Shown: positions 2,992 to 37,079 of the stretch, in pieces
Layout of the letters: the number at the start of each line of letters is the position of its first letter
Numbering within the stretch: the first letter of the stretch is position 1
From: Candidatus Woykebacteria bacterium
GTDB taxonomy: Bacteria; Patescibacteriota; Microgenomatia; Woykebacterales; RBG-16-39-9b
Assembly (NCBI GenBank): GCA_040876345.1
Contig: JBBDPM010000006.1
Location: 182,431 to 246,430, forward strand
Reading direction: 5' to 3'
Length of the DNA: 64,000 nt
Position numbers and translations under genes: made by a program
The notes under the pieces: generated by a model
Told to the model about the DNA's origin: nothing
The model's input: the letters and a program-made list of their open reading frames with translations, nothing else
Databases searched by the model: none

Positions 2992-3076
2992 GAAACTATT
3001 ATACCAACATAAATCACTTTGTGATAATATTTGCTTGACGAGCAAGGAAAGAGCAAGGATCAACAGGAGGAGACCG

Positions 3077-3340: not shown

Positions 3341-3364
3341 CGCTGGTTAGGAAGGAGTCGGTCG

Positions 3365-12705: not shown

Positions 12706-13110
12706 TCAGACGTTCGCGAAGAACCTGAGCACGCACTCTTCTGCTTCGGCAAGATCACTCAGTGCCGAAGGTGTGTCACCACTGGCTATGTGTCGATCGG
12801 CGCTCACAAGCAGAGTCATTACCTGGTGCCAGCAGATGCGATGAAGACCCGCAAGCTCACCAGGAACCACCATTCTGCCTGGGCCGGTCTCCCAGCTAAT
12901 CCGATACCAACGTTTGGCCATTTGAGCAAGCCGCCCTCTTTCGGGCTCTGTGAGGCTAGCCTTTTTCAACAACTCTCGGGCGTGCTGTACACCGCTGATT
13001 ACCTCGATCGAGTACTTAATCATTACCTCTCGGTAGCCTGGCCCGATGAGTAAGCGTCGAAGAGCCCAGACTCCTAACACCGCTGCTGCCACGACTAACA
13101 GTTTCCGCAT
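12706..13110 (-). CDS. Hypothetical secreted/membrane protein on GC-rich island
   Basis: N-terminal hydrophobic signal MRKLLVVAAAVLGVWAL; about 60% GC. Confidence 0.35.
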   Translation of the reverse strand: MRKLLVVAAAVLGVWALRRLLIGPGYREVMIKYSIEVISGVQHARELLKKASLTEPERGRLAQMAKRWYRISWETGPGRMVVPGELAGLHRICWHQVMTLLVSADRHIASGDTPSALSDLAEAEECVLRFFANV

Positions 13111-22516: not shown

Positions 22517-23212
22517 TTAAGTATAATCTATACTGTCAAACATGACAATTTTATGCTTTTTGAGAATGCCGACAATCTCTTTATTAATAGAGTCTTTTGA
22601 TCTCATAACGCCATTATTACCCACACAACTTACTTTCACCCAATGTTTAAATCGTTTTGATAATAGATCGTACATTTTTTCTGTTTTGGTAAGGTATTCA
22701 AAGTTCTCTTCGTGAATATCACTTTTTCGGCCTCGGCCTTTAATTAAAACCTTAGCAACAGCAACCGGTACGTGAAGGTAGATTACTAAATCTTCTTTGG
22801 GTATTTTATTTACCTTGTACTCAAGCTCCAAAAGCCAGTGTAAAAATTTGTCTTTCTCAGGGTCTGGAATATTTGCACCAGAATAGGCCATGTTGCTTGT
22901 TGCGTAGCGATTAGCTAACACTATTTTTCCAGCTCGCAACCAAGCGTTCATTTCACGCTTGGCCGTTACCCGGTCTAAAGAATAGGCTAAAGACACTAAA
23001 TAAGGGCTAACTTTAGCCACTTCTCCAAATTCACCCTTCAGATAGCGCTCAATAGTCTTGCCGTGAAAGCTTTCTTTATAGCGGGGAAACTCAATTGATT
23101 CGACTGGATAATTCTTTTGTGCAAGAGCCGATTTTAAAAGAGAGGCTTGAGTAGCTTTTCCACTACCGTCTGTGCCTTCGATGACGATTAATTTGCCAGG
23201 CCGCTTTTGCAT
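22517..23212 (-). CDS. tmk: Thymidylate kinase
   Basis: P-loop IVIEGTDGSGKAT, DRY-type motif (ANRYATS), lid region. Confidence 0.65.
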   Translation of the reverse strand: MQKRPGKLIVIEGTDGSGKATQASLLKSALAQKNYPVESIEFPRYKESFHGKTIERYLKGEFGEVAKVSPYLVSLAYSLDRVTAKREMNAWLRAGKIVLANRYATSNMAYSGANIPDPEKDKFLHWLLELEYKVNKIPKEDLVIYLHVPVAVAKVLIKGRGRKSDIHEENFEYLTKTEKMYDLLSKRFKHWVKVSCVGNNGVMRSKDSINKEIVGILKKHKIVMFDSIDYT

Positions 23213-23425: not shown

Positions 23426-23794
23426 CTAGCCATTACTTGGGCTGGTATCTATCGGCTTTTCGAAGTAGTAGGTTAACCCGCCAGTCGTGCAATCGCCACA
23501 CGCCAGTGTGACTGACCAGACTGCGTAAAGAGTACCGTCGCTCCGCAACTCGGCGGTGTTCCAGAGCGGCGGCGCTGATCTCGAATCGAAGAGCTTCGGT
23601 TCCACCCCTTCAGGATCGAAGGATAGGGCGAGGCTCTTTGTCAGATCCTCCGAGAGCTGCGGCACGCGGATTTGTTCCACTCGCTGAACCTTCTCAGGGT
23701 ACCGCTCCAAGTTAAGGAGCGTAACGAGTGCTAACGGTATCAGAATGGAGAGGGCCAGAACAGGACCAATCCCACCCAAGCCTGTGGGTTTCAT
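23426..23794 (-). CDS. Hypothetical membrane/secreted protein on GC-rich island
   Basis: N-terminal TM GPVLALSILIPLALVTLL; about 58% GC. Confidence 0.35.
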   Translation of the reverse strand: MKPTGLGGIGPVLALSILIPLALVTLLNLERYPEKVQRVEQIRVPQLSEDLTKSLALSFDPEGVEPKLFDSRSAPPLWNTAELRSDGTLYAVWSVTLACGDCTTGGLTYYFEKPIDTSPSNG

Positions 23795-24071: not shown

Positions 24072-24512
24072 TTACAGATTTCTTGGGTTTTTCAATCCAG
24101 CGTGAATTGCATTTTTGACATTAGGTAAGAGGTTGTATTTATCCAAATCTTCAATTCGAATCCATTCAGGGGTTGATTCTGGTGAGGAGACAAGCTCTCC
24201 CTCAAAATCTTTAGAAAGAAAAACTTTCATAGAAAACTTTTTCACTGTGCCGTCTTTTCTTTTAACATCTGCTTTATAAAAATTTTCTGGAAACTCCAAA
24301 AGATCTTTTTCATCTTTTATGAACCCAGTTTCTTCCTTAAGTTCCCTTACAGCTGCTGCCTTTTCCTCTTCTTTCTCTTCCAATGTGCCTGATGGGAGAC
24401 CATAAGTACCAGGCTCATGCCCAGCATCCTCTTCATGCTTCACCAAAAGCACTTTCTTATCTTTAATAATCAACACAGCAACTGTAGGAATTACGTTGGG
24501 GCTTGAGTTCAT
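24072..24512 (-). CDS. NUDIX hydrolase
   Basis: Nudix box GLPSGTLEEKEEEKAAAVRELKEETGF. Confidence 0.8.
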   Translation of the reverse strand: MNSSPNVIPTVAVLIIKDKKVLLVKHEEDAGHEPGTYGLPSGTLEEKEEEKAAAVRELKEETGFIKDEKDLLEFPENFYKADVKRKDGTVKKFSMKVFLSKDFEGELVSSPESTPEWIRIEDLDKYNLLPNVKNAIHAGLKNPRNL

Positions 24513-24520
24513 AAATTAAC

Positions 24521-25471
24521 CTAAAACCCGCCGACAACTGTCACTTCAGCTTTTATTGTCGGGTGGGGATCATAGTCTTCAAGAGTAAAATCTTCAAAAA
24601 TAAAATCATCAATTTTTTTGACTTTAGGATTCAGCTTCATCTTGGGAAAGGGTTTTGGTTTCCTCTTTAGCTGCTCGCGTACTGCATCAAAATGGTTTTC
24701 ATAAATGTGGACGTCTCCCCAGGTTAGAATAAACTCGCCCGGCTTAAATCCAGTCACCTGGGCAATCATCAAAAGAAGCAGGGAGTAGCTGGCAATGTTA
24801 AAAGGAACTCCGAGGAAAATATCGGCACTTCTCATGTAAAGTTCTAGTGAAAGCTTCCCCTCATCATCCACATTAAGCTGGAAAAAGGTATGACAGGCAG
24901 GAAGTACGACGGATTTTCCAGGCAGCGCCATCTCGTAAATATACTCCGGGTTCCAAGCAGAAATCACCACGTGTTTACGCTGGGGAGTTTTTTTCAGTTT
25001 TTCAATTGCCCAAGCAAGCTGGTCGATTTCTCGTCCGTCAGAAGCAGGCCAGCGCCGCCAGTTCACCCCATAAACTGGTCCAAGCTCGCCCCACTTCTTG
25101 GCAAACTTTGGCTCCTCCGCAATTTTTTGAACGAATTCCTCCTCCTCCATTTTTGGTACTTTTCCTTTTTCCATTTCCTTTAGATAGATCTTGTACGCCC
25201 ATTCATCCCAAATGTGCACGTTATTATCCACCAAATATTTAATATTAGAATCCCCCTTCAAAAACCAAAGCAGCTCATGGATAACTCCTCTTATAAAAAC
25301 TTTTTTGGTGGTGAGTAAAGGAAAACCCTGGGAAAGATCAAAGCGAATCATTCGGCCTAAAACACTCTTAATTCCAATTCCAGAATTAAATTCACGTTTC
25401 AGATGACCATTTTTTAAGATGTCTCTCAATAAATCTAAGTATTGTTGTTCAGGATGAGACTTATCAGTCAT
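24521..25471 (-). CDS. thyA: Thymidylate synthase (ThyA)
   Basis: Active-site region PACHTFFQLNV, RSADIFLGVPFNIASY. Confidence 0.9.
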   Translation of the reverse strand: MTDKSHPEQQYLDLLRDILKNGHLKREFNSGIGIKSVLGRMIRFDLSQGFPLLTTKKVFIRGVIHELLWFLKGDSNIKYLVDNNVHIWDEWAYKIYLKEMEKGKVPKMEEEEFVQKIAEEPKFAKKWGELGPVYGVNWRRWPASDGREIDQLAWAIEKLKKTPQRKHVVISAWNPEYIYEMALPGKSVVLPACHTFFQLNVDDEGKLSLELYMRSADIFLGVPFNIASYSLLLLMIAQVTGFKPGEFILTWGDVHIYENHFDAVREQLKRKPKPFPKMKLNPKVKKIDDFIFEDFTLEDYDPHPTIKAEVTVVGGF

Positions 25472-25495
25472 ATTTCTCCCTTTCTTGACACAAAT

Positions 25496-26035
25496 TCAAA
25501 CCTGCTTCTCCTCCCCTTCAGTTGTAACTCTTCCTCCTTGCCACTGGCCTCGGTAGGAAGCTCCTTTCCCTGCAATTTCAGAAAATATTATGTGAGCGAC
25601 TCTGGCTCCCATCTCGACTTTAAAATTCGAATTTCCCATATTTTTCAAGCCAAAAGTCAAAATCCCTTTATATCCAGGGGCTACTTGAGTTGAAAGTAAC
25701 CACATACCGCTTCGTAAAAGTGTTGAGCGTGGGTATGGGATCGCAACAATGTTGTCAGATAGATTGACCGACTCTACAGTTTGCATCAGGTAAAACTCGG
25801 CTGGTTTTATTGTAAAAGTAGAGGATTTCTTCGAATCGTATTTCGCAACCGAAGTATGATCGACGGTGTTCCTTTTTTCGACCCCCAAAAAAGTCTCTCC
25901 TTTTATTTTAAATAACTCGCCTAGCCGAAGATCAAGACCCACTCCTTCAGGATTAGTAAGCTCACGCTCGCTTAGGCCTTCAACCAGCTTTGAAGTCTGT
26001 ATTAATTCCTTTATTTTCTCCTGACTTAGTACCAT
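25496..26035 (-). CDS. dCTP deaminase / dUTPase-family paralog 3
   Basis: 179 aa, beta-clip dUTPase-superfamily pattern; third of three tandem paralogs. Confidence 0.65.
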   Translation of the reverse strand: MVLSQEKIKELIQTSKLVEGLSERELTNPEGVGLDLRLGELFKIKGETFLGVEKRNTVDHTSVAKYDSKKSSTFTIKPAEFYLMQTVESVNLSDNIVAIPYPRSTLLRSGMWLLSTQVAPGYKGILTFGLKNMGNSNFKVEMGARVAHIIFSEIAGKGASYRGQWQGGRVTTEGEEKQV

Positions 26036-26160
26036 GACTTTTTAATTATAGCCCACACGGTGGGAGCAGAACGCGGGAGTACTCAAATTTTGAGTTCGGC
26101 GATAAAATTTGATTACGGAGCGTTCTATTTTTTTGATTGTCTCCTGAGAAAGCACCATAA

Positions 26161-26634
26161 TTAAAGCTTGCTCTTTTCGGGCTTATTGTGATCGTAACTT
26201 GACCGATACCCCGCAACGCTTTTGTCTACCTCCTCAAAAATTACCTGACAAACTGGCAAACCTGCGCTCAGAAGGACTGGCTTTTTGGAAAGATTTTTCA
26301 GGGTTAAAATTGGCTTCCCTGAATAATTTGGGGGCAAAAGATCGGCTTCAAAAGTTGTCAAAATACCAAGCCTGGCGATGGACGAGCGGGAAACAACTCT
26401 GCCCATTATATTTTCTGGAAGGCTTATGTGCTCGGCCGTGTTAGTCAGCAAAAATTCATCAAGTGAGAGGTGGTAATCAGCAAGATCTATCTCTTCCCCG
26501 CTATCTGGATTCAAGGCTTGACTGCCTAAATGTAGATCCACGCTAATTGCCCCGACCTTCGCTTCCTCAAACGGATCGATTTTAATCTTCCCAGTCTTTA
26601 TTAGGTTTTTGATAGTCTGTCCCGATAAAACCAT
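26161..26634 (-). CDS. dCTP deaminase / dUTPase-family paralog 2 (short, Dut-like)
   Basis: 157 aa; N-terminus MVLSGQTIKNLIKTGKIKIDPF mirrors Dcd. Confidence 0.65.
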   Translation of the reverse strand: MVLSGQTIKNLIKTGKIKIDPFEEAKVGAISVDLHLGSQALNPDSGEEIDLADYHLSLDEFLLTNTAEHISLPENIMGRVVSRSSIARLGILTTFEADLLPPNYSGKPILTLKNLSKKPVLLSAGLPVCQVIFEEVDKSVAGYRSSYDHNKPEKSKL

Positions 26635-26638
26635 AATA

Positions 26639-27259
26639 CTAAACCCTCACCGATTTTTTCCCGTGCCGGACATATCTGGCTTCTTTCTTACCTGACATTT
26701 CCTCCCCTAATTTACTTGCCAATGGACTTTCCTGGCCTGCATACTTAGCTCCTTTCTTCTTACGATAGGGATTATCTACTGGAGAAGAAACTTGTTCAAA
26801 AGTGAAAGAACATATTCTCATGCCAGGGTAAAGTGCTACGGGCATTACCCCAATGTTGCCAAGCTCCATTACTGGCTTGCCCACCCAACCCGGATCAAAA
26901 CGAGCAGCGGTTGAGTGAACAATTATTCCAAGACGTCCTAGGCTGCTTCTTCCTTCTAAGCGGCCGAGCAGGTCATCAGAAATCTCCAAATGCTCAACTG
27001 TCGTTGCCAGGCAAAACTCCCCCGGCCGCATAATGAAAGACTCATCCCCTTGCACAACAATGTCTTTCATCACATCTCCAGAAGTAGTACTGCGTGGATC
27101 AATATAAGGATATTTTGAATGGTTAAATATTTTAAAAGTGTTACCCAGGTGAAAATCAATGGAACAGGAGCCAAGTTGAACTTCAAGGTCTGGCGAAGGT
27201 GTAATTTTTATCTTACCCGAATCTATATATTCGCGAATATCTCTATCAGAAAGAATCAT
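26639..27259 (-). CDS. dcd: dCTP deaminase
   Basis: MILSDRDIREYIDSGKIKITP Dcd N-terminus, 206 aa typical size. Confidence 0.8.
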   Translation of the reverse strand: MILSDRDIREYIDSGKIKITPSPDLEVQLGSCSIDFHLGNTFKIFNHSKYPYIDPRSTTSGDVMKDIVVQGDESFIMRPGEFCLATTVEHLEISDDLLGRLEGRSSLGRLGIIVHSTAARFDPGWVGKPVMELGNIGVMPVALYPGMRICSFTFEQVSSPVDNPYRKKKGAKYAGQESPLASKLGEEMSGKKEARYVRHGKKSVRV

Positions 27260-27527
27260 AGGGACGGCGAACCCCGTGAAAGTTTAACTGAAGTGGGGCC
27301 CCTCCTTTTCGCATTCCATAATATCAGCGGAATAAATCAAAAACAAGAGGATCAAAATAGGTCACTCTGTAGGATGTGTGGAGGACCGGGGCGCGCTAGG
27401 ACGGTTGTCCGCAAACAGCGCGTCCCGGTCCTCAAGGCGGGGGAGGGAATGTCTTTCTAGTTGTGCCCCTACCCCCACCAGTACCATGATGTTGGTGTGT
27501 TCCAGGTTGGCGCGGAAGTTTGCTGCT

Positions 27528-27851
27528 TTACTGCTTTGGGGCAGTGTAAATGGCGTGCGGACCATCTAGTCCAGCACCTTCCCTACCAACCACGATGATC
27601 TCCTCGCCCCTTTCGGCTGCTTCTGTGAACCTACTCAATAGACCCTTGCTCCGCCATTCGACTTCTGCTCTAGAGTCTATCAGGTTATAGTGAGTTGCTA
27701 CCCTACCATCTGGAAGAGTCACTCTACTCCACACCCGCGCAGGATGAAGAGGGGCTTGAAAGTAGCGGACCGCGCAGGTTCCTTCTGGCAATTCAACAAT
27801 GAGAACGCCGCTCTTCTCATCGCTAAGTTGCGGTGGTTCGTCTGTGCCCAC
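27528..27851 (-). CDS. Hypothetical protein (GC-rich island), in frame with the upstream ORF across a single TAA
   Basis: GTG start directly after the TAA of 27852..28169 in the same frame; protein-like composition. Confidence 0.25.
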   Translation of the reverse strand: MGTDEPPQLSDEKSGVLIVELPEGTCAVRYFQAPLHPARVWSRVTLPDGRVATHYNLIDSRAEVEWRSKGLLSRFTEAAERGEEIIVVGREGAGLDGPHAIYTAPKQ

Positions 27852-28169
27852 TTACCATCGCCTCCCATATCCATAAACGGCCATCTGCCGCGCTCCAAGA
27901 GCACCACCAACTCGAGCGTGTGTGCTCGCCAAGATCACTCTTGTCCACTCATTTTGTGCCGCCGCGACGCTTCTCGCCATCGCTGCGTTGAAGCTCTCGT
28001 CTCCCTCCTGGTGCACTTCGTTGAAGTGAGTCCACACCCCACTACTGTGAGGAAAGTGGTATGTCGGTGGTGGCGGCCACAGTATACCACCACGATAGCG
28101 GATACGGTCTTTCCTCCCATCCACCGAGGAAACTACAACCCTGCCGCGTCCACGATTCCTGGATGCCAA
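27852..28169 (-). CDS. Hypothetical protein (GC-rich island)
   Basis: 105-aa ORF; possibly the N-terminal part of a disrupted 211-aa gene. Confidence 0.25.
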   Translation of the reverse strand: MASRNRGRGRVVVSSVDGRKDRIRYRGGILWPPPPTYHFPHSSGVWTHFNEVHQEGDESFNAAMARSVAAAQNEWTRVILASTHARVGGALGARQMAVYGYGRRW

Positions 28170-28654
28170 CTACGAACCTCCCTTTCGTTCGCGCTGATCC
28201 CTACCTGGGGTCCTTCCCGATCAAGGCTTTAATAGCCCGATTTGGATCTCTCAAAAAACAAATCGCGCCCTTCAAGCGCTTTATTAAAATTATAACGAAA
28301 AATCCCCAGGCGTTCAACAACTCAAGCTTGGGTTCGGCGAACCGCGGTAAGAGTTTCCATTCTCTTGCCGCGGCTCAGTCCACGCATCATCCCCAACTAA
28401 CGGATGTGCCCTTCCGCCAATTAGGAGACTGGCTGCCGACGAGAAGCTAATCTGACAGCCTCATCAACAGCCCAGTCTCCGATCTTCCTTGGTGCTGCAA
28501 CACACAGAAAGAAGCTCGGATCTTCCTTCCATGGGCTTCATGCGATGGATTTCCCCTCCCCATCTCCGGTCTCTTTGATCCGCCAGAGCTGTTTTTGAAC
28601 CCTCAAAAACAGATCCCGCTTATCAATCTTTGTTTTGTATATTACACCTCTCTG

Positions 28655-28712
28655 TCCAAAAAATCCAAAACCCCGAGGACTTATGCAGGCAATGCCCACG
28701 GCCTCGGGGTTT
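28655..28712 (-). terminator. Rho-independent terminator (minus strand)
   Basis: 11-bp perfect inverted repeat AAACCCCGAGG/CCTCGGGGTTT followed on the minus strand by TTTTGGATTTTTTGG, 27 nt after the stop of the 28739 gene. Confidence 0.5.
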
Positions 28713-28738
28713 GGCAGCTGACTTCTCTCCCACGTTCC

Positions 28739-29152
28739 TCACTCTTTCACGCCGATTGCAACCATCCCACCCGGCAATAGAACGGCGCAGGTCTCGTCCT
28801 TCCTCGTCTTCCGAAGAGCAAACGCCGCCACACTGACCAAGTCGTCGCCATTGGCCATTGTCGGCACCTGTGCGACTAGCAAGCACTTGAAGACGCCTGG
28901 CCCAGGAATCTCGATCGTGTCGCCGATCTCCATTTCCCGATCGTAGCTCGCAAACCGTACCCGTCGGCCGGTTATAGTGATCGAGCTAACACCCGTCAGT
29001 GGCTTGACCACATGAAGGCTTGACCGGTGCAAGCTTGGACTGGTCTCACCAGTTCCTTGCAAAAGCCTAGTTAAGGGGCCCATCTCCACCCTCCTTTCCA
29101 ATGTATTACTACTCTCACCTTGAGCAGTCCAACCTGCCTTCAACAAAAGCAA
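28739..29152 (-). CDS. Hypothetical protein (GC-rich island)
   Basis: ORF with downstream terminator; possible shorter start at MGPLTRLL. Confidence 0.35.
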   Translation of the reverse strand: MLLLKAGWTAQGESSNTLERRVEMGPLTRLLQGTGETSPSLHRSSLHVVKPLTGVSSITITGRRVRFASYDREMEIGDTIEIPGPGVFKCLLVAQVPTMANGDDLVSVAAFALRKTRKDETCAVLLPGGMVAIGVKE

Positions 29153-29236
29153 GTTGCACTAATCAAGTAAGGATCGACGGAGCCACACCTGGTGAAACAC
29201 CATGCGTGGCTCCGCAGAAGTGACCTGGGGTCTGGG

Positions 29237-29599
29237 TTAGCCGGTTGCGGGCATAGGCGCGACAGCGATCCTCGTACCGCGGGCGGTGGTCTCAATAATG
29301 ACGGCCACCACCTTGCGGAGCTGCTCGAAGCGTTCGAGAAGCTGGCGAACGATGTCTGGCTGCGTCGTACAGCTCACCTCGACAACATGCTCGCATCGCA
29401 GCCCGTTGCCCTCGAAGACGATGCCACCACCCACTTCCAGGGCGCCCTTCTTCTCAGGCTCCGCGAAGACGACCGTCAGACCTCCCATAGTGATGGATGC
29501 CCCCGGGCCCTGCCGATTCACTTTCAGTGCCAAACGTTCCCTCCTCCATGAGTTACCGGAGACTAGCGCTGCGGGTCCTTCTACCCCACATCTCTGCAC
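29237..29599 (-). CDS. Hypothetical protein (GC-rich island)
   Basis: Protein-like composition, AT-rich promoter region upstream (29600-29800). Confidence 0.35.
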   Translation of the reverse strand: MQRCGVEGPAALVSGNSWRRERLALKVNRQGPGASITMGGLTVVFAEPEKKGALEVGGGIVFEGNGLRCEHVVEVSCTTQPDIVRQLLERFEQLRKVVAVIIETTARGTRIAVAPMPATG

Positions 29600-29815
29600 T
29601 CCGAAGGCTTTGACTAGCCCAAGCTACCTTTTAGGTAATCCTAAAAAACAGTTTGCACAAGTCAAACATTCTGTATTTTACACTAATTTGTAAAGTAATA
29701 TGCAAAAACCTAAAATTCCCCCCAATCTTTAAACAAACTCAGCCCAAATAAGCAAGAAGGGCAGGGGAATATTTCATCTCTCTGCCCTTCCGGGAATCCT
29801 TTCCGTAGAGTGTGG

Positions 29816-29974
29816 CTACCTTGCCTTGTCAGCGCCTTCCATCAACCCTTCCACTTTGCTTATTGCATCCATGGCTGGGTCTAGGAAGACAGGGAGCGCG
29901 AAAACGGCGATGATGACTGCTAATGCTAGCAGCAATCCAACCGTCAACAGTCCCCCTGAGGAACCACTTCTCAC
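29816..29974 (-). CDS. Small membrane protein (52 aa)
   Basis: GGAGG then 8 nt then GTG; single TM GLLTVGLLLALAVIIAVFALPVF; below ORF-track cutoff. Confidence 0.35.
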   Translation of the reverse strand: MRSGSSGGLLTVGLLLALAVIIAVFALPVFLDPAMDAISKVEGLMEGADKAR

Positions 29975-30116
29975 GGTATTCACCTCCAGAAAAAGTAGTG
30001 TCGAATTTCTTCGACCCTCGACTGAAATCCACCTTCCAGAAGATGGCCTTCAGTTGAGCCCTGGGGGAACACGCATCCGAAGATTTGTGTCCCCCAGGGC
30101 GGCGGCAGGAAGTTGT

Positions 30117-30710
30117 CTACTGGCTGGGGGCGGCGGTCGGCTGGACGGGTTTGTTGAAGCGCCTCCGCAGTGCGGAAAAGAACGCCTTCAACCCAGTCCG
30201 TATTCCATACCTGTACCGGTGGACGACCACACCCGCCCCAAACGCGACGATACTTGCGGCTGCGAGGGCGGTTCTCCAGTGTGGCCAATCGTTGTCGGTT
30301 GGGACCCGAACGGCCCGAACCACAACCGGTTGACCGACCCACTGCCACGGAATCTCGAGCTCCACACCCGGCAGAAGTGGGCAATTCCCGAAGGGAATCC
30401 CCGTCTGCTGGGCAGCCCGAGAGATCGTCTCGACGTTGTTGCCGGTATAGAGCAGCTGATGCCACTCTCCCGGCCTACCAAGCGCCGTGGCGATCCTCGA
30501 GCATGTATCGTTGTCACCGACGACCCACGTGCCGCCGGGCGGCAGCATGCCGCCGAGCACCTCGTCCTCCTGGTTCTCCTGCGCACTCGCGCTGTGGGCG
30601 AAAGTGAACAGGATGATGATGAGCGCTACTAACCCCACGATCAGCGCGAGTAGCAGGGCTCCATTCCCTCTCTGGTAACCCGGTTGGCGCATGTAACCTC
30701 CTTGCTGCAT
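30117..30710 (-). CDS. LysM-domain membrane protein
   Basis: N-terminal TM, LysM-like WVVGDNDTCSRIATALGRPGEWHQLLYTGNNVE, C-terminal TM. Confidence 0.45.
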   Translation of the reverse strand: MQQGGYMRQPGYQRGNGALLLALIVGLVALIIILFTFAHSASAQENQEDEVLGGMLPPGGTWVVGDNDTCSRIATALGRPGEWHQLLYTGNNVETISRAAQQTGIPFGNCPLLPGVELEIPWQWVGQPVVVRAVRVPTDNDWPHWRTALAAASIVAFGAGVVVHRYRYGIRTGLKAFFSALRRRFNKPVQPTAAPSQ

Positions 30711-31109
30711 ACTTCCTGCCTGCCGAAACTAATTACCAGATATCCTGATAGCCAGATTCGGCAGACAAACTTAATTTTCAAAGAACGAAAGCTCTTATCT
30801 TACAGCAATGGACATTATCTGCTAAATCACCCTGGTGACTCGGCCTCAAATGCCCACGAAATAGTACCTATTATATCAGAAAATGCTGGAAAAGTCAAAT
30901 ACTATAAGTCGCTACATAACTTCGAGACCAGCGAGCTTCTTGTAGCTCAAGGAGTGATCGCAGAGCGCGAAGCGATCTATTTATCAGGTATTCTCGCGCC
31001 TTGCGCTAGCCAACTTTTGGCTAGATAAGGACTCTTATTGAAGGGCTAGTAGTGGTGGGGTGGCGCGCTTCCTCAGATGCTACGCGCCTGCCCCAAAATG
31101 ACCTCCGCC

Positions 31110-31583
31110 TCACTTCTCCTGAGCTTCTCCCCTGATCGCGATGGCGTAGAGAAGATCGTCGACTTGCCGCTCACTCTCCGGGTCCGGACCAGTCTGCCCT
31201 ACCTCGAGATAGTTCCTCAGCCTCTGCACTCGAGGCGCTAAGTCCGCATCCGTAACACCCTTTCCCAGAGTAACCGCAGTGCTCAGGTATCGGAGGACGA
31301 GGAACACTCGCTCCCTATCGAGAGCATCGTAGTAATGGTAAACCCCATCTTCCCGATCCGCCTCGATCATCAGCATCGTGCGATCGAAGACACCAAGCGC
31401 CCAGTTCGCCGTCTTTTCATCAAACTGCAACTGGATCAAGTGACCAACGTTGATTGCTTCGCTTTCTAGGCGGAGCTCCTCCCTGAGTTGGATGTTTTCC
31501 TGCCGCGTGTCATGCCAGGCAACCCCGAAGATAATTGCGCTGGCAGTTGTGATTGCCGCCAACGCTGATAGGAACAGGCTCAT
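31110..31583 (-). CDS. Hypothetical membrane-anchored protein (GC-rich island)
   Basis: N-terminal TM MSLFLSALAAITTASAIIFGVAW, 157 aa. Confidence 0.4.
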   Translation of the reverse strand: MSLFLSALAAITTASAIIFGVAWHDTRQENIQLREELRLESEAINVGHLIQLQFDEKTANWALGVFDRTMLMIEADREDGVYHYYDALDRERVFLVLRYLSTAVTLGKGVTDADLAPRVQRLRNYLEVGQTGPDPESERQVDDLLYAIAIRGEAQEK

Positions 31584-31960
31584 CGTTGTTTCCCTCCTTC
31601 CGTGAACCAGTCCCCGCCGTCCAGGACGTTTGAAAGAATATTAACGCTTATGCACTTAATGGTCAAGAAATTCATTAATAGAAAAATGGTGAAAAAAGCT
31701 GTAGGCGGCGCGTGCTCCGTGAGGAAACTCGCGCCGCACCAAACGTTGCTGGCCAGGTTTTCAGAAGGTAGTTCCGTCAGACGCACCTTCGGGGACCGGA
31801 GTCGGCGTTTCGTACGCGGCGCAGGGATCGAATATAGGTCAAGAGATTGGTTTGGCTACGTTTGGGGCACTTCTTCTTTAGTCTGAGGCTTTGTCCGAGC
31901 TCATCCACTTACTTAAATACTCTTATTTACTTTTATTCTTCGCTGATTTATACTTTTGTC

Positions 31961-32197
31961 ATGAATTTCCGCGTTTTTATTACTCAAGATGAAAGTGGTG
32001 TTTATGTAGCCTCTGTTCCAAGCCTTCCGGGCTGCCACAGTCAAGGTAAGAGCGTTGAAGAAGCCACTAAAAACATTAGGGAGGCTATTACTGGGTGGAT
32101 CGACGTGGCTAAGGAATTTGGTGATCCAATACCTTCTGACGATACGGAAGTAATTGAACTAAACGTAAAAGTTGCCGAACCTGCAACATCTCAATGA
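31961..32197 (+). CDS. hicB: Type II antitoxin HicB (UPF0150)
   Basis: MNFRVFITQDESGVYVASVPSLPGCHSQGKSVEEATKNIREAI is the classic HicB/UPF0150 pattern; start set to the internal ATG. Confidence 0.8.
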   Translation: MNFRVFITQDESGVYVASVPSLPGCHSQGKSVEEATKNIREAITGWIDVAKEFGDPIPSDDTEVIELNVKVAEPATSQ

Positions 32198-32415
32198 AAC
32201 TTCCAGTCGTATCTGGTAACGAGTTTGTGAAACGAGTGAAGAGTAAAGGTTTTATCTTTGAAAAACAAGAGGGCTCGCACATGATGTTGCGCCTCACCCA
32301 ACACCCATTCACTAAATTATCCGTACCGAGACATAAAGAACTTAGTAAAGGCCTGCTGCGTCGTCTATTACGAGATGCGGATATTACAGTTGAAGAGTTT
32401 GGAAAGCTCAAATAA
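32194..32415 (+). CDS. hicA: Type II toxin HicA (mRNA interferase)
   Basis: MKLPVVSGNEFVKRVKSKGFIFEKQEGSHMML: YcfA/HicA fold with conserved GSH; 4-nt overlap with hicB. Confidence 0.8.
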   Translation: MKLPVVSGNEFVKRVKSKGFIFEKQEGSHMMLRLTQHPFTKLSVPRHKELSKGLLRRLLRDADITVEEFGKLK

Positions 32416-32421
32416 AATTCA

Positions 32422-34485
32422 TTAAGTTTCCGTTTTTACAGCCTGCACCTCCGGCTTTGTCCAGCTCATCCATTTGCATTTGGGGTAGCCGGAACAGCCG
32501 TAAAAAGGTCTGCCCTTTCGGGTTCGTTTGATAACGACTGGATCGCCAGACTCTGGACATTTGGCGTCTATTTTTTCTTCAAAAGCCTTTGTGTATTTGT
32601 GTTCGGGGAATTTTTCGCAGGCTAAAAATTTGCCAAAACGGCCGTAGCGAATTACAAGGGGATGACCATCTGGGCATTTCTCATCTGTAAGCTCGGCAAA
32701 CACCTTTACTCTTTCTGCCTCGGCCGTTACTTTATCCAAATGCTCTGCGAAAGGATCGTAAAACTCTCGAATCATCGGTACCCATTCCCTTCTGCCGTTT
32801 GCAATTTCATCTAGTTCATCTTCTCTTTTGGCGGTAAACCCAGGGTCAAGCTCTTCTGAAAAATTTTTAACAAGAAAATCATTGGTGGCTGCTCCCAAAG
32901 GAGTTGGCCGAAGTTTCCGATCTTCTCGCTCAACGTAGTGGCGATCTAAGATTGTGGAAATAATCGGCGCATAAGTACTTGGCCGACCAATCCCTCGCTC
33001 CTCCAAAGCTTTGATCAGGGAAGCCTCTGTATATCTTGGTGGAGGCTCGGTGAAATGTTGGCTTGGCAAAAGCTTGCTTAAATCAAGATCGGTTCCTTCT
33101 GGAAGTGGTGGAACTTTTTTCTCTTCATCCCCAATTGCTTCCCCTTCCTCCCTACCATAAACTTTCTTCCAGCCTGGGAATTTTATAATCGATCCAACTG
33201 CCCTAAATAGATATTGGATTTTAGATTTAGGATTTTGGGCTGAGATATCCAAACTAACTTGATCGTAAACAGCATCTGCCATCTGCCCCGCCACAAATCT
33301 GCTCCAAATCAACCCATAAAGTTTTTTGTGATCATTTGGCATTTGAATTTTGGCATTTGACATCCCCACGTCAGTGGGCCTTATTGCCTCGTGCGCTTCC
33401 TGTGCTGACCTTGATTTAGTTTTGTAAACTCTTGCAGAAGGCGGTAAATAATCTTTGCCAAACTCTTTTTCGATGAATTTCCTGGCTGCCGAAAGAGCTA
33501 CTGGCGCAAGATTGAAAGAATCAGTGCGGTGGTAAGTAATTATTCCTTCTTCATAAAGATCTTGGGCAAGCTTCATTGTTTTTTTCGAGGTAAAGCCGAA
33601 GGTATTAGCCGCTCCCTGAGTCATCGTCGAAGTGGTAAAAGGCGGGTAAGGAGCCTTCCTAACATCTTTTTGTTCTGACCGAATTACTTTCCAGGCTGTA
33701 TCTTTTGATTCTAAGTCTGAGGTAATTTCTTTCGACTCCTTTTCATTCTTAACCTCTGCCTTCTTGTCCCCAGTCTTAACCAAACCCGCCAAAAAATCCT
33801 CTTTTTGGCTTTTGGCTTTTGGCTTTTGACTCAATAGTGCTTCAATATTCCAGTACTCCACCGCCACAAACTGCTCAATCTCCCGCTCTCGTTCGACTAT
33901 CAAACGGACCGCAACTGATTGCACTCTTCCCGCCGAGAGCCCCCGTTTTACCTTCCTCCAAAGCAATGGGGAAAGTTTATAGCCTACTAAACGGTCTAAC
34001 ACTCTCCGGGCGGTTTGAGCATCAACCAGCTGGAAATCTATATCCCGTGGGGCTCTGAGAGCTTCAAGAATGGCTTCTTTAGTTATCTCATGGAAAACAA
34101 TACGCTTCGTAATAAGTGGGGCCTTAACAGCCACAGGTTTTTTATCATTTTTTTCTTTCTTGGAGCTTGTTACTTGGGTCTTGTTACTTATTAATTGACT
34201 AATATGCCAAGCGATTGCCTCTCCTTCCCTGTCTGGGTCGGTCGCTAAAAGTACTTGTTCAGATTTTTCCGATAAGTGCTTGAGACTCTCGACCGTCTTC
34301 CTTTTATCTTTCGGAATAACATAATCTGGCTCAAAATTATGATCAGTATCTACCCCAAGCTTTGATTTGGGCAAATCGCGCACGTGCCCCATTGAGGCCT
34401 CGATTTGATAATTTTTATCTAAAAATCGGGAAAGTGTACGTGCTTTTGTTGGGCTTTCGACTATAACCAAGATTTTTGGCATCAT
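32422..34485 (-). CDS. topA: DNA topoisomerase I
   Basis: Toprim ILVIVESPTKA, catalytic Tyr region ITYHRTDS, C-terminal C4 zinc ribbons. Confidence 0.9.
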   Translation of the reverse strand: MMPKILVIVESPTKARTLSRFLDKNYQIEASMGHVRDLPKSKLGVDTDHNFEPDYVIPKDKRKTVESLKHLSEKSEQVLLATDPDREGEAIAWHISQLISNKTQVTSSKKEKNDKKPVAVKAPLITKRIVFHEITKEAILEALRAPRDIDFQLVDAQTARRVLDRLVGYKLSPLLWRKVKRGLSAGRVQSVAVRLIVEREREIEQFVAVEYWNIEALLSQKPKAKSQKEDFLAGLVKTGDKKAEVKNEKESKEITSDLESKDTAWKVIRSEQKDVRKAPYPPFTTSTMTQGAANTFGFTSKKTMKLAQDLYEEGIITYHRTDSFNLAPVALSAARKFIEKEFGKDYLPPSARVYKTKSRSAQEAHEAIRPTDVGMSNAKIQMPNDHKKLYGLIWSRFVAGQMADAVYDQVSLDISAQNPKSKIQYLFRAVGSIIKFPGWKKVYGREEGEAIGDEEKKVPPLPEGTDLDLSKLLPSQHFTEPPPRYTEASLIKALEERGIGRPSTYAPIISTILDRHYVEREDRKLRPTPLGAATNDFLVKNFSEELDPGFTAKREDELDEIANGRREWVPMIREFYDPFAEHLDKVTAEAERVKVFAELTDEKCPDGHPLVIRYGRFGKFLACEKFPEHKYTKAFEEKIDAKCPESGDPVVIKRTRKGRPFYGCSGYPKCKWMSWTKPEVQAVKTET

Positions 34486-34606: not shown

Positions 34607-35278
34607 GTGGTCCAGCAAAGCATCCCTAAAACTCGACGGCAAGACCTTTTCGTTCGCAACGGCAACACTGCCCCCACAACTCCAACACTGCTACAGCTGG
34701 CGGGGGAACCTGACGGACTCCGCGAGGACCTTTTCACCGATTTCTGGAGGCCATGGATCGCTTTCGGATGCGGAGATGGACGTTGGGTAGCCATAACGGA
34801 TTTCATGGTGGCTGCTCGGAACGCTGGCGGTACTGATCAACCCTCACCACTGGGCGGAATTCGCAAAGTGGCGGAGTACCTACGGGCAGGTGATAAATCA
34901 GCCTTAAGGCTGGTCGTGGACGAGATTGACTTCGCTCATGATCACCACGGAGTAGTTGCAGTTCAACTCATTGCTCACCCACTCTGTGGAGCGACAAGAG
35001 TTGAGGTCTGTAAAGCAATTCCTGAGGCAAGCTCGATCTACAGGAGCCCAACGAAGGGCGATCCCCAACTCTTTTACTCCACCATGATGGCGGAGCTGGG
35101 AATACAACGGTCTGACTTCGACAAGGTGCGGCGCTGGATATTCCAAACCTTCCCGTTCATCGTCGCTGTCCAGTACCTCAGAGTCACTAAGTATCGTCTG
35201 ACCCTCTTCAGCGACCACGAACTCGCAGTCGCAAAGGCTGTGCAGGAACTCAAGTCGCAAGGCAACTGGACGGAGTAG
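34607..35278 (+). CDS. Hypothetical protein (223 aa) on GC-rich island
   Basis: Protein-like composition; followed by a 13-bp perfect hairpin at 35296-35327. Confidence 0.35.
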   Translation: MVQQSIPKTRRQDLFVRNGNTAPTTPTLLQLAGEPDGLREDLFTDFWRPWIAFGCGDGRWVAITDFMVAARNAGGTDQPSPLGGIRKVAEYLRAGDKSALRLVVDEIDFAHDHHGVVAVQLIAHPLCGATRVEVCKAIPEASSIYRSPTKGDPQLFYSTMMAELGIQRSDFDKVRRWIFQTFPFIVAVQYLRVTKYRLTLFSDHELAVAKAVQELKSQGNWTE

Positions 35279-35552: not shown

Positions 35553-37079
35553 CTATTCGTACTCTATCGTCGCTGGGGGTTTTTGGGTGACGTCGTAAAC
35601 TACTCGATTTACTCCTTTGACTTCATTGACTATCCGACTCGAGATTTTCTCAAGCACATCATGGGGCATTTTGAACCAATCCGCAGTCATTCCATCCACG
35701 CTCGTCACTGCTCGAAGAGTGATAATATATTGATAAGTTCGCAAGTCCCCCATCACCCCGACAGTTTTAATTGGCAAAAGCGCAGCAAAAGCCTGCCAAA
35801 TTTTATCGTAAAGCTTGGTTTTCTTTAGCTCTTCTATATAAACTGCGTCTGCTTCCCGAAGAATTTCGAGCCGCTCGGGCGTGACCTCCCCAACAATTCG
35901 AACCGCAAGGCCAGGCCCCGGAAATGGATGGCGAAACAAAGCTTCGGTGGGAAGCCGAAGCTGCATCCCAAGGGAACGTACCTCATCCTTATAGAAGTTT
36001 CGGAGTGGCTCGACAACCTGAAATTTGAGCTTTTCCGGCAAAGTTAGATTGTGATGGCTTTTTATTTTGGTGCTCTGCTTGCTAGTCGAAGCAGACTCCA
36101 CTCTGTCTGGGTAGATTGTCCCTTGAGCAAAAAAGCGAATTTTTTCCTTTTTTTCTAGCGAGGCTGCTACATCCTCAAAAACTTTAATGAAAGTGTGGCC
36201 AATTATTTTTCTTTTTTCCTCTGGATCCTCAATTTTTTTTAATTTTCTTAAGAAGATATTTGAAGCGTCTACTTTAATAAAATTTGCAAACCTTTGTTTT
36301 CTGAATAAAAATTCCACCTCCTCCGCCTCATTTTTTCGAAGTAGCCCAGTGTCGATGAAAACAGCAAAAAGATTATCTCCAATTGCTTTATAAAGAAGGT
36401 TGGAAGCTACCAGGGAGTCCACTCCACCAGAAACACCAATAAGAACTTTTTCCTCGCCTAGATTTTCCTTAAGATTCTTGATTAGCTCTTTGGTTATATC
36501 TTTGATTTGCCAGCTTTTTTTAGCCTTGCAAATCCCAAAAACGAAGTTTTTCAAAATCGCCTGTCCATACTCGGTGTGGGCAACTTCAGGGTGAAACTGC
36601 ACTGCGTATATTTTTTGTTCAATATTGGAGAAAGCGCTGATAGGGCAATAGTTACTCCTTGCTATTATTTCAAAATCTGCTGGGAGTTTTTTGACCAAAT
36701 CCCCGTGAGATAGCCAAACTGTTTGGCTATCTGAAAGCCCTTTAAAAAGCAGGCTTTTAGTGTTTAATTTAATCCTTTCTTTCCCATATTCCCTACTCCT
36801 TCCTTCTTCAACCTCTCCCCCTTTTTCTTTTGCTAGAAGTTGTAGTCCGTAACAAATGCCGAGGATTGGAATATTAAGATCAAATACCTTTGGATTAAGC
36901 TTGGGGGAACCTTTTCCATAAACAGAGGAGGGCCCGCCGGAAAGAATAACACCCTCAAGAGTATTAAGCCCGCCAAGGTCCACTTTTGGGCCAAAAATTT
37001 CGGCCGCTACCCCAAGCTCTCGAATTCTCCGAGAAATAAGATGAGTATATTGGCTACCATAATCCAAAACTGCAATCAT
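35553..37079 (-). CDS. guaA: GMP synthase (glutamine-hydrolysing)
   Basis: GATase domain with catalytic Cys (GICYGLQ), ATP-PPase SGGVDS motif. Confidence 0.9.
   Translation of the reverse strand: MIAVLDYGSQYTHLISRRIRELGVAAEIFGPKVDLGGLNTLEGVILSGGPSSVYGKGSPKLNPKVFDLNIPILGICYGLQLLAKEKGGEVEEGRSREYGKERIKLNTKSLLFKGLSDSQTVWLSHGDLVKKLPADFEIIARSNYCPISAFSNIEQKIYAVQFHPEVAHTEYGQAILKNFVFGICKAKKSWQIKDITKELIKNLKENLGEEKVLIGVSGGVDSLVASNLLYKAIGDNLFAVFIDTGLLRKNEAEEVEFLFRKQRFANFIKVDASNIFLRKLKKIEDPEEKRKIIGHTFIKVFEDVAASLEKKEKIRFFAQGTIYPDRVESASTSKQSTKIKSHHNLTLPEKLKFQVVEPLRNFYKDEVRSLGMQLRLPTEALFRHPFPGPGLAVRIVGEVTPERLEILREADAVYIEELKKTKLYDKIWQAFAALLPIKTVGVMGDLRTYQYIITLRAVTSVDGMTADWFKMPHDVLEKISSRIVNEVKGVNRVVYDVTQKPPATIEYE

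What the first reader, a model, noticed from the sequence alone, without database searches (positions are those of the whole stretch)
27260..31600. 4.3-kb GC-rich island of membrane/LysM/hypothetical proteins
Minus-strand string: a TM protein (31110..31583), a LysM protein with N- and C-terminal TM helices (30117..30710), a 52-aa TM peptide with a strong RBS (29816..29974), and two soluble hypothetical proteins (29237..29599, 28739..29152) followed by a clear terminator. Two further ORFs (27852..28169 and 27528..27851) lie in the same frame separated only by TAA. The island sits directly upstream of the dcd/thyA nucleotide cluster and downstream of the hicBA module. The function is unknown, possibly a cell-envelope or phage-related module. 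Opposite-strand ORFs here (for example 29826..30632) appear spurious.
Basis: partly seen in the sequence, partly recalled or inferred. Interest (0 to 1): 0.5.

Follow-up and report, generated by a model that had tools for sequence, protein, structure and literature searches.

The report
GC-rich orphan-gene island at hotspot
A 4.6-kb stretch between the topoisomerase I gene and the dcd/thyA operon of a Woykebacteria (Patescibacteria) genome holds seven or eight small, real but orphan genes whose composition and translation signals differ from the core genome; four are preceded by copies of a new stem-loop, and their function is unknown.

Summary
Window 27.4-31.9 kb has GC 0.53-0.63 against about 0.43. 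It carries a minus-strand string of small ORFs (A-G) between hicBA/topA and dcd1. The ORFs look real: all seven have a strong Shine-Dalgarno site, coding-type codon-position composition, and identical copies in three MAGs. A also has two remote homologues.

The "LysM" label for B found no support. F and G look like two coupled genes rather than one broken gene.

No ORF matches Pfam, PHROGs, PADLOC, PDB, phage, plasmid or IMG/VR data. B and G are orphans among 5.8 billion proteins.

The topA-dcd1 interval is a conserved hotspot. Relatives keep the flanks but hold different small genes that are also GC-rich and SD-led. The nearest relative (L002) shares only a B-like architecture, a G orthologue and one leader element.

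New here is a 65-nt stem-loop (R1), present four times in the island and nowhere else in the window. It shows compensatory changes and lies just upstream of D, E, a 25-codon mini-ORF and F.

Best reading: a composite accessory island, part ancestral and part acquired or duplicated, encoding envelope-anchored and small soluble proteins. Function is unresolved. It is an ordinary kind of feature with one new cis element.

The parts
27318..27364 (-). Conserved dcd1 promoter region. It marks the left edge of the variable interval and is not part of the island.
   Evidence: 87% identical over 47 nt to L002 14030-14076; alignment.
27381..27433 (-). 17-bp hairpin downstream of G. It is terminator-like but has no immediate U-run.
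   Evidence: the repeat finder I4, 94% complementary; 150-nt window z = -6.3.
27528..27851 (-). G: a 107-aa soluble protein with a GTG start directly after F's TAA.
   Evidence: SD GGGAGG 9 nt upstream. Called in 3 MAGs. The only relative is the positional orthologue in L002 and P0016 (pairwise E 2e-4, HPARVW and VVG..DGP motifs).
27852..28169 (-). F: a 105-aa basic (pI 11.3) ORF with a TTG start. Its coding status is uncertain.
   Evidence: SD GGGAGG 7 nt upstream; purine at codon position 1 is 0.62. But GC1/2/3 is flat at 0.60/0.56/0.56, no pipeline called it, and L002 has no counterpart.
28219..28282 (-). R1 stem-loop, copy 4, 50 nt upstream of the F start.
   Evidence: cmsearch 67.9 bits. 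Preceded by TTGAAC-17-TATAAT at 28289-28317. Homologous to L002 13519-13583.
28325..28475 (-). Strongly structured spacer of three long hairpins, overlapping the 3' end of the mini-ORF.
   Evidence: z = -6.0 and -4.6 in 150-nt windows. The whole 569-nt E-F spacer has z = -6.4. No Rfam match.
28464..28541 (-). 25-codon mini-ORF (MKPMEGRSELLSVCCSTKEDRRLGC). Candidate only.
   Evidence: ATG preceded by GGGGAGGGG, and 25 nt downstream of R1 copy 3. No other evidence.
28566..28633 (-). R1 stem-loop, copy 3.
   Evidence: cmsearch 75.0 bits; the repeat finder I1.
28655..28712 (-). Intrinsic terminator after E.
   Evidence: Hairpin with 20-nt arms at 28668-28712 (I5), followed by TTTTGGATTTTTT.
28739..29083 (-). 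E: a 114-aa soluble protein. The ORF extends to 29152.
   Evidence: SD AAGGAGGG before the ATG at 29083. Called as 114 aa by Logan. GC3 0.65. Weak paralogy to D (Smith-Waterman score 47 against 27 +/- 4.6 in shuffles).
29111..29173 (-). R1 stem-loop, copy 2, 28 nt upstream of the E start.
   Evidence: cmsearch 36.8 bits, E 3e-7. This copy was not used to build the model.
29237..29533 (-). D: a 98-aa soluble protein. The ORF extends to 29599.
   Evidence: SD GGAGGAGGG before the TTG at 29533. Called as 98 aa in NCBI MAGs. GC3 0.69.
29601..29672 (-). R1 stem-loop, copy 1, 68 nt upstream of the D start.
   Evidence: cmsearch 75.4 bits.
29746..29790 (-). Terminator-like hairpin after C (GAAGGGCAG / CTGCCCTTC, then TTGCTTATTT).
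   Evidence: Read from the sequence.
29816..29974 (-). C: a 52-aa single-pass membrane peptide.
   Evidence: SD GGAGGTG 7 nt before the GTG. Hydrophobic segment at residues 6-42. Called by Logan.
30117..30692 (-). B: a 191-aa bitopic envelope protein. It has a signal-peptide-like N-terminus (…HSASA/QE), an ectodomain of about 100 aa with two Cys, a C-terminal TM helix and a basic tail.
   Evidence: SD AAGGAGG. TM segments. GC3 0.75. Only itself among 5.8e9 proteins. No LysM match. The L002 203-aa positional analogue has the same architecture and an FGAG(V/I)V motif.
30717..30767 (-). Leader hairpin directly upstream of B.
   Evidence: the repeat finder I3, 23-nt arms; z = -3.3.
30870..30898 (-). 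Strong promoter-like site for B-C (TTGACT-17-TATAAT with TG).
   Evidence: 11 of 12 matches.
31110..31583 (-). A: a 157-aa protein with an N-terminal membrane anchor and a four-helix bundle.
31961..32415 (+). hicB (31961-32197) and hicA (32194-32415), a toxin-antitoxin pair with host-like GC. They fill the rest of the variable interval up to the topA stop codon.
   Evidence: Pfam HicB_lk_antitox and HicA_toxin on the called genes. Absent from this position in L002.

Best explanation
The interval between topA and the dcd-thyA operon is a gene-turnover hotspot in this Woykebacteria-like clade. In this genome it holds a composite accessory island, not a single recent insert.

Shared with the nearest relative (L002):
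- a B-type envelope protein (signal peptide, small Cys-containing ectodomain, C-terminal anchor);
- G;
- one R1 leader stem-loop.

Specific to this lineage:
- hicBA and the membrane-anchored helical-bundle protein A;
- three more copies of the unit 'promoter + R1 leader + SD + small ORF', giving D, E, a mini-ORF and F.

The peptide C has no detectable counterpart in L002. L002 carries an unrelated 67-aa, two-TM peptide at the same place.

Shown: the genes are real and are transcribed as four or five short minus-strand units with their own promoter-like and terminator-like sites. They start translation from strong Shine-Dalgarno sites, whereas most core genes of this genome have none. Their GC3 of 0.5-0.75 contrasts with a core value of about 0.4.

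Inferred:
- This signature points to origin in, or exchange with, a GC-richer, SD-using gene pool.
- R1 acts in the mRNA 5' leader to co-regulate or stabilise the D, E, mini-ORF and F-G transcripts.
- The products form a dispensable, fast-evolving module of the cell envelope (A, B, C) plus small cytoplasmic partners (D, E, F, G). Such a module might serve the cell's interaction with its host or with phages.

F and G are two translationally coupled genes, not one broken gene.
For: Real genes:
- SD sites in 7 of 7 ORFs, P about 8e-10.
- Codon-position GC and G1/R1 patterns typical of coding sequence.
- Identical products in three NCBI MAGs plus Logan assemblies.
- A has remote homologues and a confident fold.

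Hotspot: the topA-to-dcd1 order is kept in L002, L007, L008, L048, L084, L085, L089 and L095, with gaps of 2.0-4.5 kb. The gap contents share no BLAST-level similarity with the window.

Composite origin:
- G has an orthologue in L002.
- The R1 leader and the dcd1 promoter are conserved with L002.
- The B-like architecture is present in L002.
- hicBA, A, D, E and F are absent there.
- D and E are weakly similar.

Distinct gene class:
- In the window, 9 of 13 ORFs with GC at or above 0.50 have an SD, against 4 of 45 of the rest (p = 3.5e-5).
- In 17 related loci, the figures are 23 of 34 against 38 of 201 (p = 3e-8).
- The gap genes of L002, L007, L008 and L048 show the same GC excess and mostly carry AAGGAGG-type SD sites.

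R1:
- Four copies in the island and one in L002. There is none elsewhere in the window or in the 97 loci searched, 1.39 Mb in all.
- 94% of cells are paired, 7 of 17 pairs have compensatory changes, and 0 of 500 shuffles reach the observed score. Slid controls give 28-51% pairing.
- G-U pairs and much lower reverse-strand scores favour an RNA on the gene strand.

Context: genomic islands are common in Patescibacteria (PMC12455944).
Against: - No function is demonstrated for any product. Every family, fold and defence search was negative.
- There is no expression data.
- No donor was identified. The GC-rich signature is also present in relatives, so vertical descent with rapid divergence cannot be separated from repeated acquisition.
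- F has flat codon-position GC and was never called as a gene.
- R1 rests on five sequences, four of them from one genome. In L002 and in the copy upstream of D, a sigma-70-like -35/-10 pair lies inside the element. Transcription from there would start within the 3' arm and the RNA stem could not form.
- The ORF sets used for the SD statistics came from a crude heuristic, which picked some wrong frames.
Confidence: 0.6

Rival explanations
1. The island is a remnant of a prophage or other integrated mobile element, for example a lysis or superinfection-exclusion cassette made of a peptidoglycan-binding membrane protein and small holin-like peptides, stabilised by hicBA.
For: It has small single-pass membrane proteins next to a toxin-antitoxin pair. 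Its composition and SD use look foreign. Its content varies between relatives.
Against: There is no integrase, no tRNA and no flanking direct repeat. There is no significant PHROG hit; the best is E = 0.022. INPHARED and PLSDB DNA searches found nothing. IMG/VR has no relative of A, B, D, E or G. BFVD fold matches have E of 0.06 or worse. No catalytic lysis domain is present. Part of the content (the B-like protein, G and R1) is shared in place with a relative whose topA is only 74% identical.
Confidence: 0.12
2. The island is a native, vertically inherited locus whose genes simply evolve very fast, and no horizontal transfer is involved. High GC and strong SD sites would then be selected properties of this gene class, for instance for expression level or mRNA structure.
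For: The same locus in relatives also holds GC-rich, SD-led small membrane genes. G, the R1 leader and the B architecture are shared with L002. AT-rich spacers with host-type promoters lie between the GC-rich ORFs.
Against: A, D, E and F have no counterpart at the locus in any relative. A's only homologues are on unrelated contigs of about 50% GC. GC3 as high as 0.75 in a genome with core GC3 of about 0.4 is hard to maintain without recent import.
Confidence: 0.2
3. The D-F part is an integron-like cassette array (a CALIN), in which the R1 palindromes are attC-type recombination sites separating captured ORFs.
For: Imperfect palindromes of about 65 nt, with conserved structure but variable loops, separate small orphan ORFs that share one orientation, and a toxin-antitoxin pair lies nearby.
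Against: There is no integron integrase within 64 kb. None of the five copies has the RYYYAAC/GTTRRRY core on either strand (alignments). The copies lie 25-68 nt upstream of start codons and next to promoter-like sites rather than just after stop codons. G-U pairs favour the sense-strand RNA. There are only four copies, all local.
Confidence: 0.04
4. The ORFs are spurious: this is non-coding, GC-rich DNA, either junk or a large structured RNA.
For: In GC-rich DNA long ORFs appear on both strands. Several segments fold far better than shuffles. Most of the ORFs are orphans.
Against: SD sites occur in 7 of 7 ORFs, and only on one strand. The frames show coding-type periodicity. The hydrophobic helices are well formed. 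A has homologues and a confident fold. G has an orthologue. Rfam finds nothing. The strongly folding parts are mostly the spacers, although one lies within the B coding sequence (30275-30499).
Confidence: 0.04

Closest known systems
Genomic islands of Patescibacteria / CPR (PMC12455944)
   Same: A compositionally deviant, strain- or species-specific block of mostly hypothetical genes in a streamlined genome. It sits next to a toxin-antitoxin pair and varies between relatives at a fixed site.
   Different: It has no mobility gene, tRNA or direct repeats. It is internally composite, with host-like AT-rich spacers. Part of it is shared with a distant relative. Its genes also differ from the core in translation initiation, since they are SD-led.
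LysM-domain membrane proteins (Pfam PF01476)
   Same: B's ectodomain loosely follows the LysM pattern by eye (V..GD.T...IA..LG....W..L...N … L.PG..L.IP). The poor model shows two or three short helices between single-residue strands.
   Different: Pfam gives no match for B, for its isolated ectodomain or for the L002 analogue. No PDB LysM chain is found, and no fold match either. It cannot be filed as LysM.
5'-UTR stem-loops that stabilise or regulate mRNAs, and repeated extragenic palindromes (REP/BIME)
   Same: R1 is a repeated imperfect palindrome of about 65 nt in the spacers between genes. Its stem is kept by compensatory changes, and it lies between the promoter and the SD.
   Different: It is not in Rfam. 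It is confined to one locus, with 4 copies there and none in the remaining 60 kb or in 97 other loci, whereas REPs are spread over the genome. No RAYT transposase is present. Its function has not been tested.
Integron cassette arrays / CALINs
   Same: A tandem run of small orphan ORFs separated by structured palindromes, with a toxin-antitoxin pair nearby.
   Different: It has no integrase and no R'/R'' core sites. The palindromes are promoter-proximal leaders on the sense strand.
HicAB type II toxin-antitoxin module
   Same: hicB and hicA on the plus strand at 31961-32415 match HicB_lk_antitox and HicA_toxin.
   Different: The pair is an ordinary neighbour with host-like GC (0.41-0.44). Nothing links it functionally to A-G.

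Membership tests
LysM domain (PF01476), for protein B | Significant match to the family HMM | tested here: not met
   No LysM hit for B at E <= 1. None for the 79-aa ectodomain alone or for the L002 analogue at E <= 10. HMMER's filters hide most matches above about 0.1, so the safe statement is that there is no match better than about 0.1.
LysM domain (PF01476), for protein B | beta-alpha-alpha-beta fold | tested here: inconclusive
   The single-sequence AlphaFold model has pLDDT 57 overall and 37-64 in the ectodomain. Foldseek against the PDB gives no match with E < 0.7.
LysM domain (PF01476), for protein B | Binding of peptidoglycan or chitin | not testable with these tools
   This needs a binding assay with the purified ectodomain.
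Genomic island | Composition deviating from the host genome | tested here: met
   GC 0.53-0.63 and GC3 0.48-0.75, against core values of 0.42-0.44 and 0.37-0.46.
Genomic island | Variable presence or content among related genomes at a conserved site | tested here: met
   The topA and dcd1 flanks are conserved in 8 related loci, and the gap contents are not homologous.
Genomic island | Mobility hallmarks (integrase or transposase, tRNA target, flanking direct repeats) | tested here: not met
   No such gene is among the called genes or ORFs. The nearest tRNA is at 62.9 kb. No flanking repeats were found.
Prophage or phage-derived cassette | Homology to phage proteins or phage DNA | tested here: not met
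   Best PHROG hit E = 0.022. INPHARED blastn found nothing. Five IMG/VR scans found nothing. BFVD fold search E >= 0.06.
Integron cassette array / CALIN | attC sites with an RYYYAAC … GTTRRRY core | tested here: not met
   The five aligned R1 copies lack these cores on either strand.
Integron cassette array / CALIN | IntI integrase nearby | tested here: not met
   None within the 64-kb window. The rest of the genome was not examined.
Known anti-phage defence systems (PADLOC) | Match to a defence protein model | tested here: not met
   No hit for A-G.
Rfam RNA families (for R1 and the structured spacers) | Match to a curated covariance model | tested here: not met
   At gathering score only tRNAs are found. 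With the E-value threshold only chance-level miRNA and snoRNA hits appear.
Conserved RNA stem-loop (R1 as a structural element) | Base pairs maintained by compensatory changes, beyond controls | tested here: met
   94% of cells are paired, 7 of 17 pairs have double changes, and 0 of 500 shuffles reach the score. Slid registers give 28-51% pairing. One copy (29111-29173) was found by the model and had not been used to build it. Caveat: only five sequences, four of them from one genome.

The most novel reading that the evidence does not exclude
The topA-dcd interval of this clade could be a dedicated gene-innovation site. New small ORFs, GC-rich and SD-led, would be recruited or born there and spread locally as 'promoter + R1 leader + SD + ORF' units. 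R1 would then be a previously undescribed riboregulatory element, possibly bound by one of the small proteins, that co-controls a fast-turning-over set of envelope and partner proteins used in the episymbiotic lifestyle.
Probability: 0.12. Interest if true: 0.6.

Novelty: new member of a known kind. Interest (0 to 1): 0.33.

Why it matters
Patescibacteria carry many orphan membrane proteins, and these are thought to mediate attachment to hosts. Hardly any of them has a known function or known regulation. This locus gives a compact, well-delimited example for three reasons. It is a fixed hotspot with conserved flanks, so turnover can be compared across genomes. Its genes form a class recognisable by GC content and Shine-Dalgarno use in an otherwise SD-poor genome. 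It also has a locus-specific stem-loop with covariation support, which could be tested as a regulator. None of this overturns current views. The value is as a tractable case and as a practical marker, GC plus SD, for accessory genes in this clade.

Tried and rejected
**Family searches.** Pfam, PHROGs and PADLOC were run on all island ORFs, on alternative-frame ORFs and on gap ORFs of relatives. Nothing significant came up.

**PDB sequence searches.** B, E and the A-family profile gave only chance hits.

**Homologue searches.**
- B matches only itself.
- The G + L002 profile finds only the two known members.
It did not even return the self hits, so it says nothing about D, E, F or C.

**DNA searches.** blastn of the island against the phage and plasmid collections found no match. 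IMG/VR scans for A, B, D, E and G found none.

**Paralogues.** None of the island proteins has a paralogue elsewhere in the window.

**Other tests.**
- Similarity of A to the L008 183-aa protein, and of B to the L002 203-aa protein by BLAST, is not significant.
- The spacer between hicB and A (31584-31960) was considered as an sRNA. Its fold z-score is 0.09, so this was rejected.
- The plus-strand ORF at 30684-31028 has host-like composition, but no family hit and no SD.
- A literature search on SD use in CPR found nothing relevant.

Full report
**Source and setting.** An exact look-up of protein B places the window on contig JBBEDR010000006.1 (586 kb) of GCA_040881185.1, annotated as Candidatus Woykebacteria. 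The island lies between topA (32422-34485, minus strand) and a run of three dcd paralogues followed by thyA (24521-27259, minus strand). hicB and hicA lie on the plus strand directly after the topA stop codon.

**Checking the observation.**
- From 27.5 to 31.5 kb, 500-nt windows have GC 0.48-0.62, against 0.38-0.45 on either side. This is the longest GC-rich run in the window, though shorter patches exist elsewhere.
- Hydrophobicity scans confirm an N-terminal helix in A, hydrophobic segments at both ends of B and one in C. D-G have none.
- The terminator after E is a hairpin with 20-nt arms followed by a T-run (I5).
- F and G share a frame and are separated only by TAA.

**Which ORFs are real?** ORF length does not decide. 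The island has 8 minus-strand and 7 plus-strand ORFs of at least 100 aa, against about 2 per strand in shuffles. This is the pattern expected from GC-rich coding DNA and its antisense shadows. Three other features do decide.
- Every one of A, B, C, D, E, F and G has GGAGG or GGGAG 5-9 nt before a start codon. Only 5% of all start triplets on that strand do (P about 8e-10), and no alternative-frame ORF does.
- A-G have G-rich and purine-rich first codon positions (purine 0.59-0.70). A, B, D and E also have the GC3 > GC2 pattern. F is flat.
- A, B, C, D, E and G were called independently and are identical in three NCBI MAGs and in Logan assemblies. This also rules out misassembly.

The SD positions and the independent gene calls move four starts: B to 30692, C to 29974, D to 29533 and E to 29083.

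**F and G.** The 107-aa G product is identical in all assemblies. G has its own SD inside the 3' end of F. The orthologue in the nearest relative is a stand-alone protein of about 112 aa that follows its leader directly, with no F. So TAA-GTG is a stop-start junction of two coupled genes, not a sequencing error or a broken gene. F itself remains the weakest ORF, because its codon-position GC is flat and it was never called as a gene.

**What the proteins are.**
- No island ORF matches Pfam, PHROGs or PADLOC.
- B's 'LysM' rests on a pattern seen by eye. The HMM finds nothing for B, for its isolated ectodomain or for the L002 analogue. PDB sequences give no LysM chain. The AlphaFold model is too poor to judge.
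- From its sequence, B looks like a type I membrane protein. It has a signal peptide ending in ASA/Q, an ectodomain of about 100 aa with two cysteines, a C-terminal helix and a basic tail. This is inference.
- B has no relative among 5.8 billion proteins.
- An exhaustive HMMER search for A found two real remote homologues of similar length (36% and 34% identity), both on contigs under 1 kb with about 50% GC.
- With that small alignment, A folds confidently (pLDDT 77) as a long N-terminal helix plus a four-helix bundle. Fold searches return only generic helical proteins.
- G's family consists of this protein and the L002-type orthologue only.
- D and E are weakly similar (Smith-Waterman score 47 against 27 +/- 4.6 in shuffles).
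- The homologue search for C, D, E and F was not informative. Their 90%-identity clusters hold only this organism.

**The locus in relatives.**
- A topA scan of GTDB genomes and a dcd1 scan of metagenomes gave 97 loci.
- The topA-to-dcd1 order is kept in eight Woykebacteria-like loci, with gaps of 2.0-4.5 kb.
- The gap contents fall into several unrelated sets. One set has a 410-aa gene. Another has a Ser/Asn-rich membrane protein plus a small HTH protein. None is similar to A-G at BLAST level.
- L002 is the nearest relative, with topA 74% identical. There the gap holds a 203-aa protein with B's architecture and a shared FGAG(V/I)V motif, a 67-aa two-TM peptide and the G orthologue.
- DNA similarity between the window and L002 is limited to the dcd1 promoter (27318-27364) and a 60-nt leader upstream of F.
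- So the island is composite. The B type, G and the leader are old. hicBA, A, D, E, the mini-ORF and F belong to this lineage.

**A distinct gene class.**
- Most core genes in the window have no SD, and some have a -10-like box 7-10 nt before the start codon.
- GC-rich ORFs carry SD sites in 9 of 13 cases, against 4 of 45 for the rest (p = 3.5e-5).
- The same association holds in 17 related loci (23 of 34 against 38 of 201, p = 3e-8). It does not hold in 74 more distant Microgenomates loci.
- The gap genes of L002, L007, L008 and L048 are all 0.04-0.15 above their genome's GC, and most have AAGGAGG-type SD sites.
- The ORF picking was heuristic, so these numbers are approximate.
- The signature fits import from a GC-richer, SD-using gene pool. 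Because it recurs at the same locus in relatives, a selected native property cannot be excluded.

**The R1 stem-loop.**
- The 569-nt E-F spacer folds far better than shuffles (z = -6.4). Sliding windows show that the strongest structures lie mostly in the spacers, with one inside the B coding sequence at 30275-30499.
- Three spacer segments and the conserved L002 leader align to one imperfect palindrome.
- A covariance model built from them found a fourth window copy upstream of E (36.8 bits, E 3e-7). It found nothing else in the 64-kb window (next best E = 0.17) or in the 97 loci searched, 1.39 Mb in all.
- Over the five copies, 94% of cells pair, 7 of 17 pairs show compensatory double changes and no shuffle reaches the score. 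Slid registers give 28-51% pairing.
- G-U pairs and much lower reverse-strand scores point to an RNA on the gene strand.
- The copies lie 68, 28, 25 and 50 nt upstream of the starts of D, E, a 25-codon mini-ORF with its own SD, and F. The F copy follows a TTGAAC-17-TATAAT site.
- I read R1 as a 5'-leader element of a duplicated 'promoter + leader + SD + small ORF' unit.
- Caveat: in L002 and in the D copy, a sigma-70-like -35/-10 pair lies inside the element. In that case the RNA stem could not form, and a DNA-level role would have to be considered.
- R1 lacks integron attC core sites and has no Rfam match.

**Mobile-element tests.** The window has no integrase, no nearby tRNA and no flanking repeats. 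The island has no similarity to phage or plasmid DNA and no IMG/VR relatives. The prophage reading is therefore weak.

**Verdict.**
- The LysM and phage suggestions are not supported, and the TAA is not an error.
- This is an accessory island at a clade-wide hotspot in a Patescibacteria genome, which is a known kind of feature (PMC12455944).
- Two aspects are worth recording: the coupling of high GC with SD-led translation in an SD-poor genome, and a locus-specific stem-loop family with covariation support.
- The function of the proteins remains unresolved. The envelope-module reading is an inference from topology alone.

Noticed in passing
window 30935-30997 (A-B spacer); L005 7686-7748; L004 543-561; L085 436-454: A motif of 22-63 nt (…AAATAGATCGCTTCGCGCTCTGCGA…) is shared with unrelated places in three other genomes. 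In L005 it lies inside the topA coding sequence, within an in-frame insertion of about 57 nt flanked by the 12-nt direct repeat CAAATGCCAAAT. That pattern suggests a tiny mobile insertion.
   Followed up: partly
whole window, e.g. starts of 13253-15238, 25496-26035, 35553-37079, 7677-8273: Most core genes lack a Shine-Dalgarno site (4 of 45). About a quarter have a TATAAT-like box ending 7-10 nt before the start codon, which suggests leaderless or near-leaderless mRNAs.
   Followed up: partly
window 2960-4673, 9279-10241, 12706-13110, 23426-23794, 34607-35278, 55883-56176: Other short GC-rich patches (0.50-0.59) are mostly SD-led. They include a sirtuin-like gene (3365-4132), an acyltransferase-like gene (9279-10241) and orphans. 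The ORF at 34868-35278 has a homologue at the same position next to topA in L048.
   Followed up: partly
window 24072-27259 and 22517-23212: Three tandem dCTP-deaminase/dUTPase-family paralogues, then thyA, a NUDIX gene and a dNK/thymidylate-kinase gene. The dcd-thyA order is conserved in relatives, although dcd3 or thyA is missing or weakly matched in some loci. The block resembles the nucleotide-modification modules of phages, but here it appears to be a core salvage cluster.
   Followed up: no
window 27260-27317: Compared with L002, the dcd1 5' region carries about 42 extra nucleotides (GGGGCCCCACTTCAG…GGGGTTCGCCGTCCCT) between the conserved promoter and the ATG.
   Followed up: no
L007 2593-3825, L087, L089, L091, L092, L095; L008 12228-12968, L048, L084, L085: In other relatives the same gap holds one of two conserved sets. 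One is a 410-aa membrane protein gene just after topA. The other is a Ser/Asn-rich membrane protein of 165-246 aa on the opposite strand, together with (in three of the four loci) a small HTH protein just upstream of dcd1. Neither set is present in the window.
   Followed up: partly
window 28464-28541 and 28325-28475: A 25-codon Cys-rich mini-ORF (MKPMEGRSELLSVCCSTKEDRRLGC) has an SD and sits behind an R1 copy. It runs into three long hairpins (z about -6). This could be a small peptide gene or a small RNA.
   Followed up: partly
window 30684-31028 (+): A 114-aa plus-strand ORF in the AT-rich A-B spacer has host-like composition (GC 0.44, GC1 > GC3 > GC2). It has no SD and no family match, and it overlaps the start of the longer 197-aa B ORF at 30710. 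It may be a gene remnant.
   Followed up: partly
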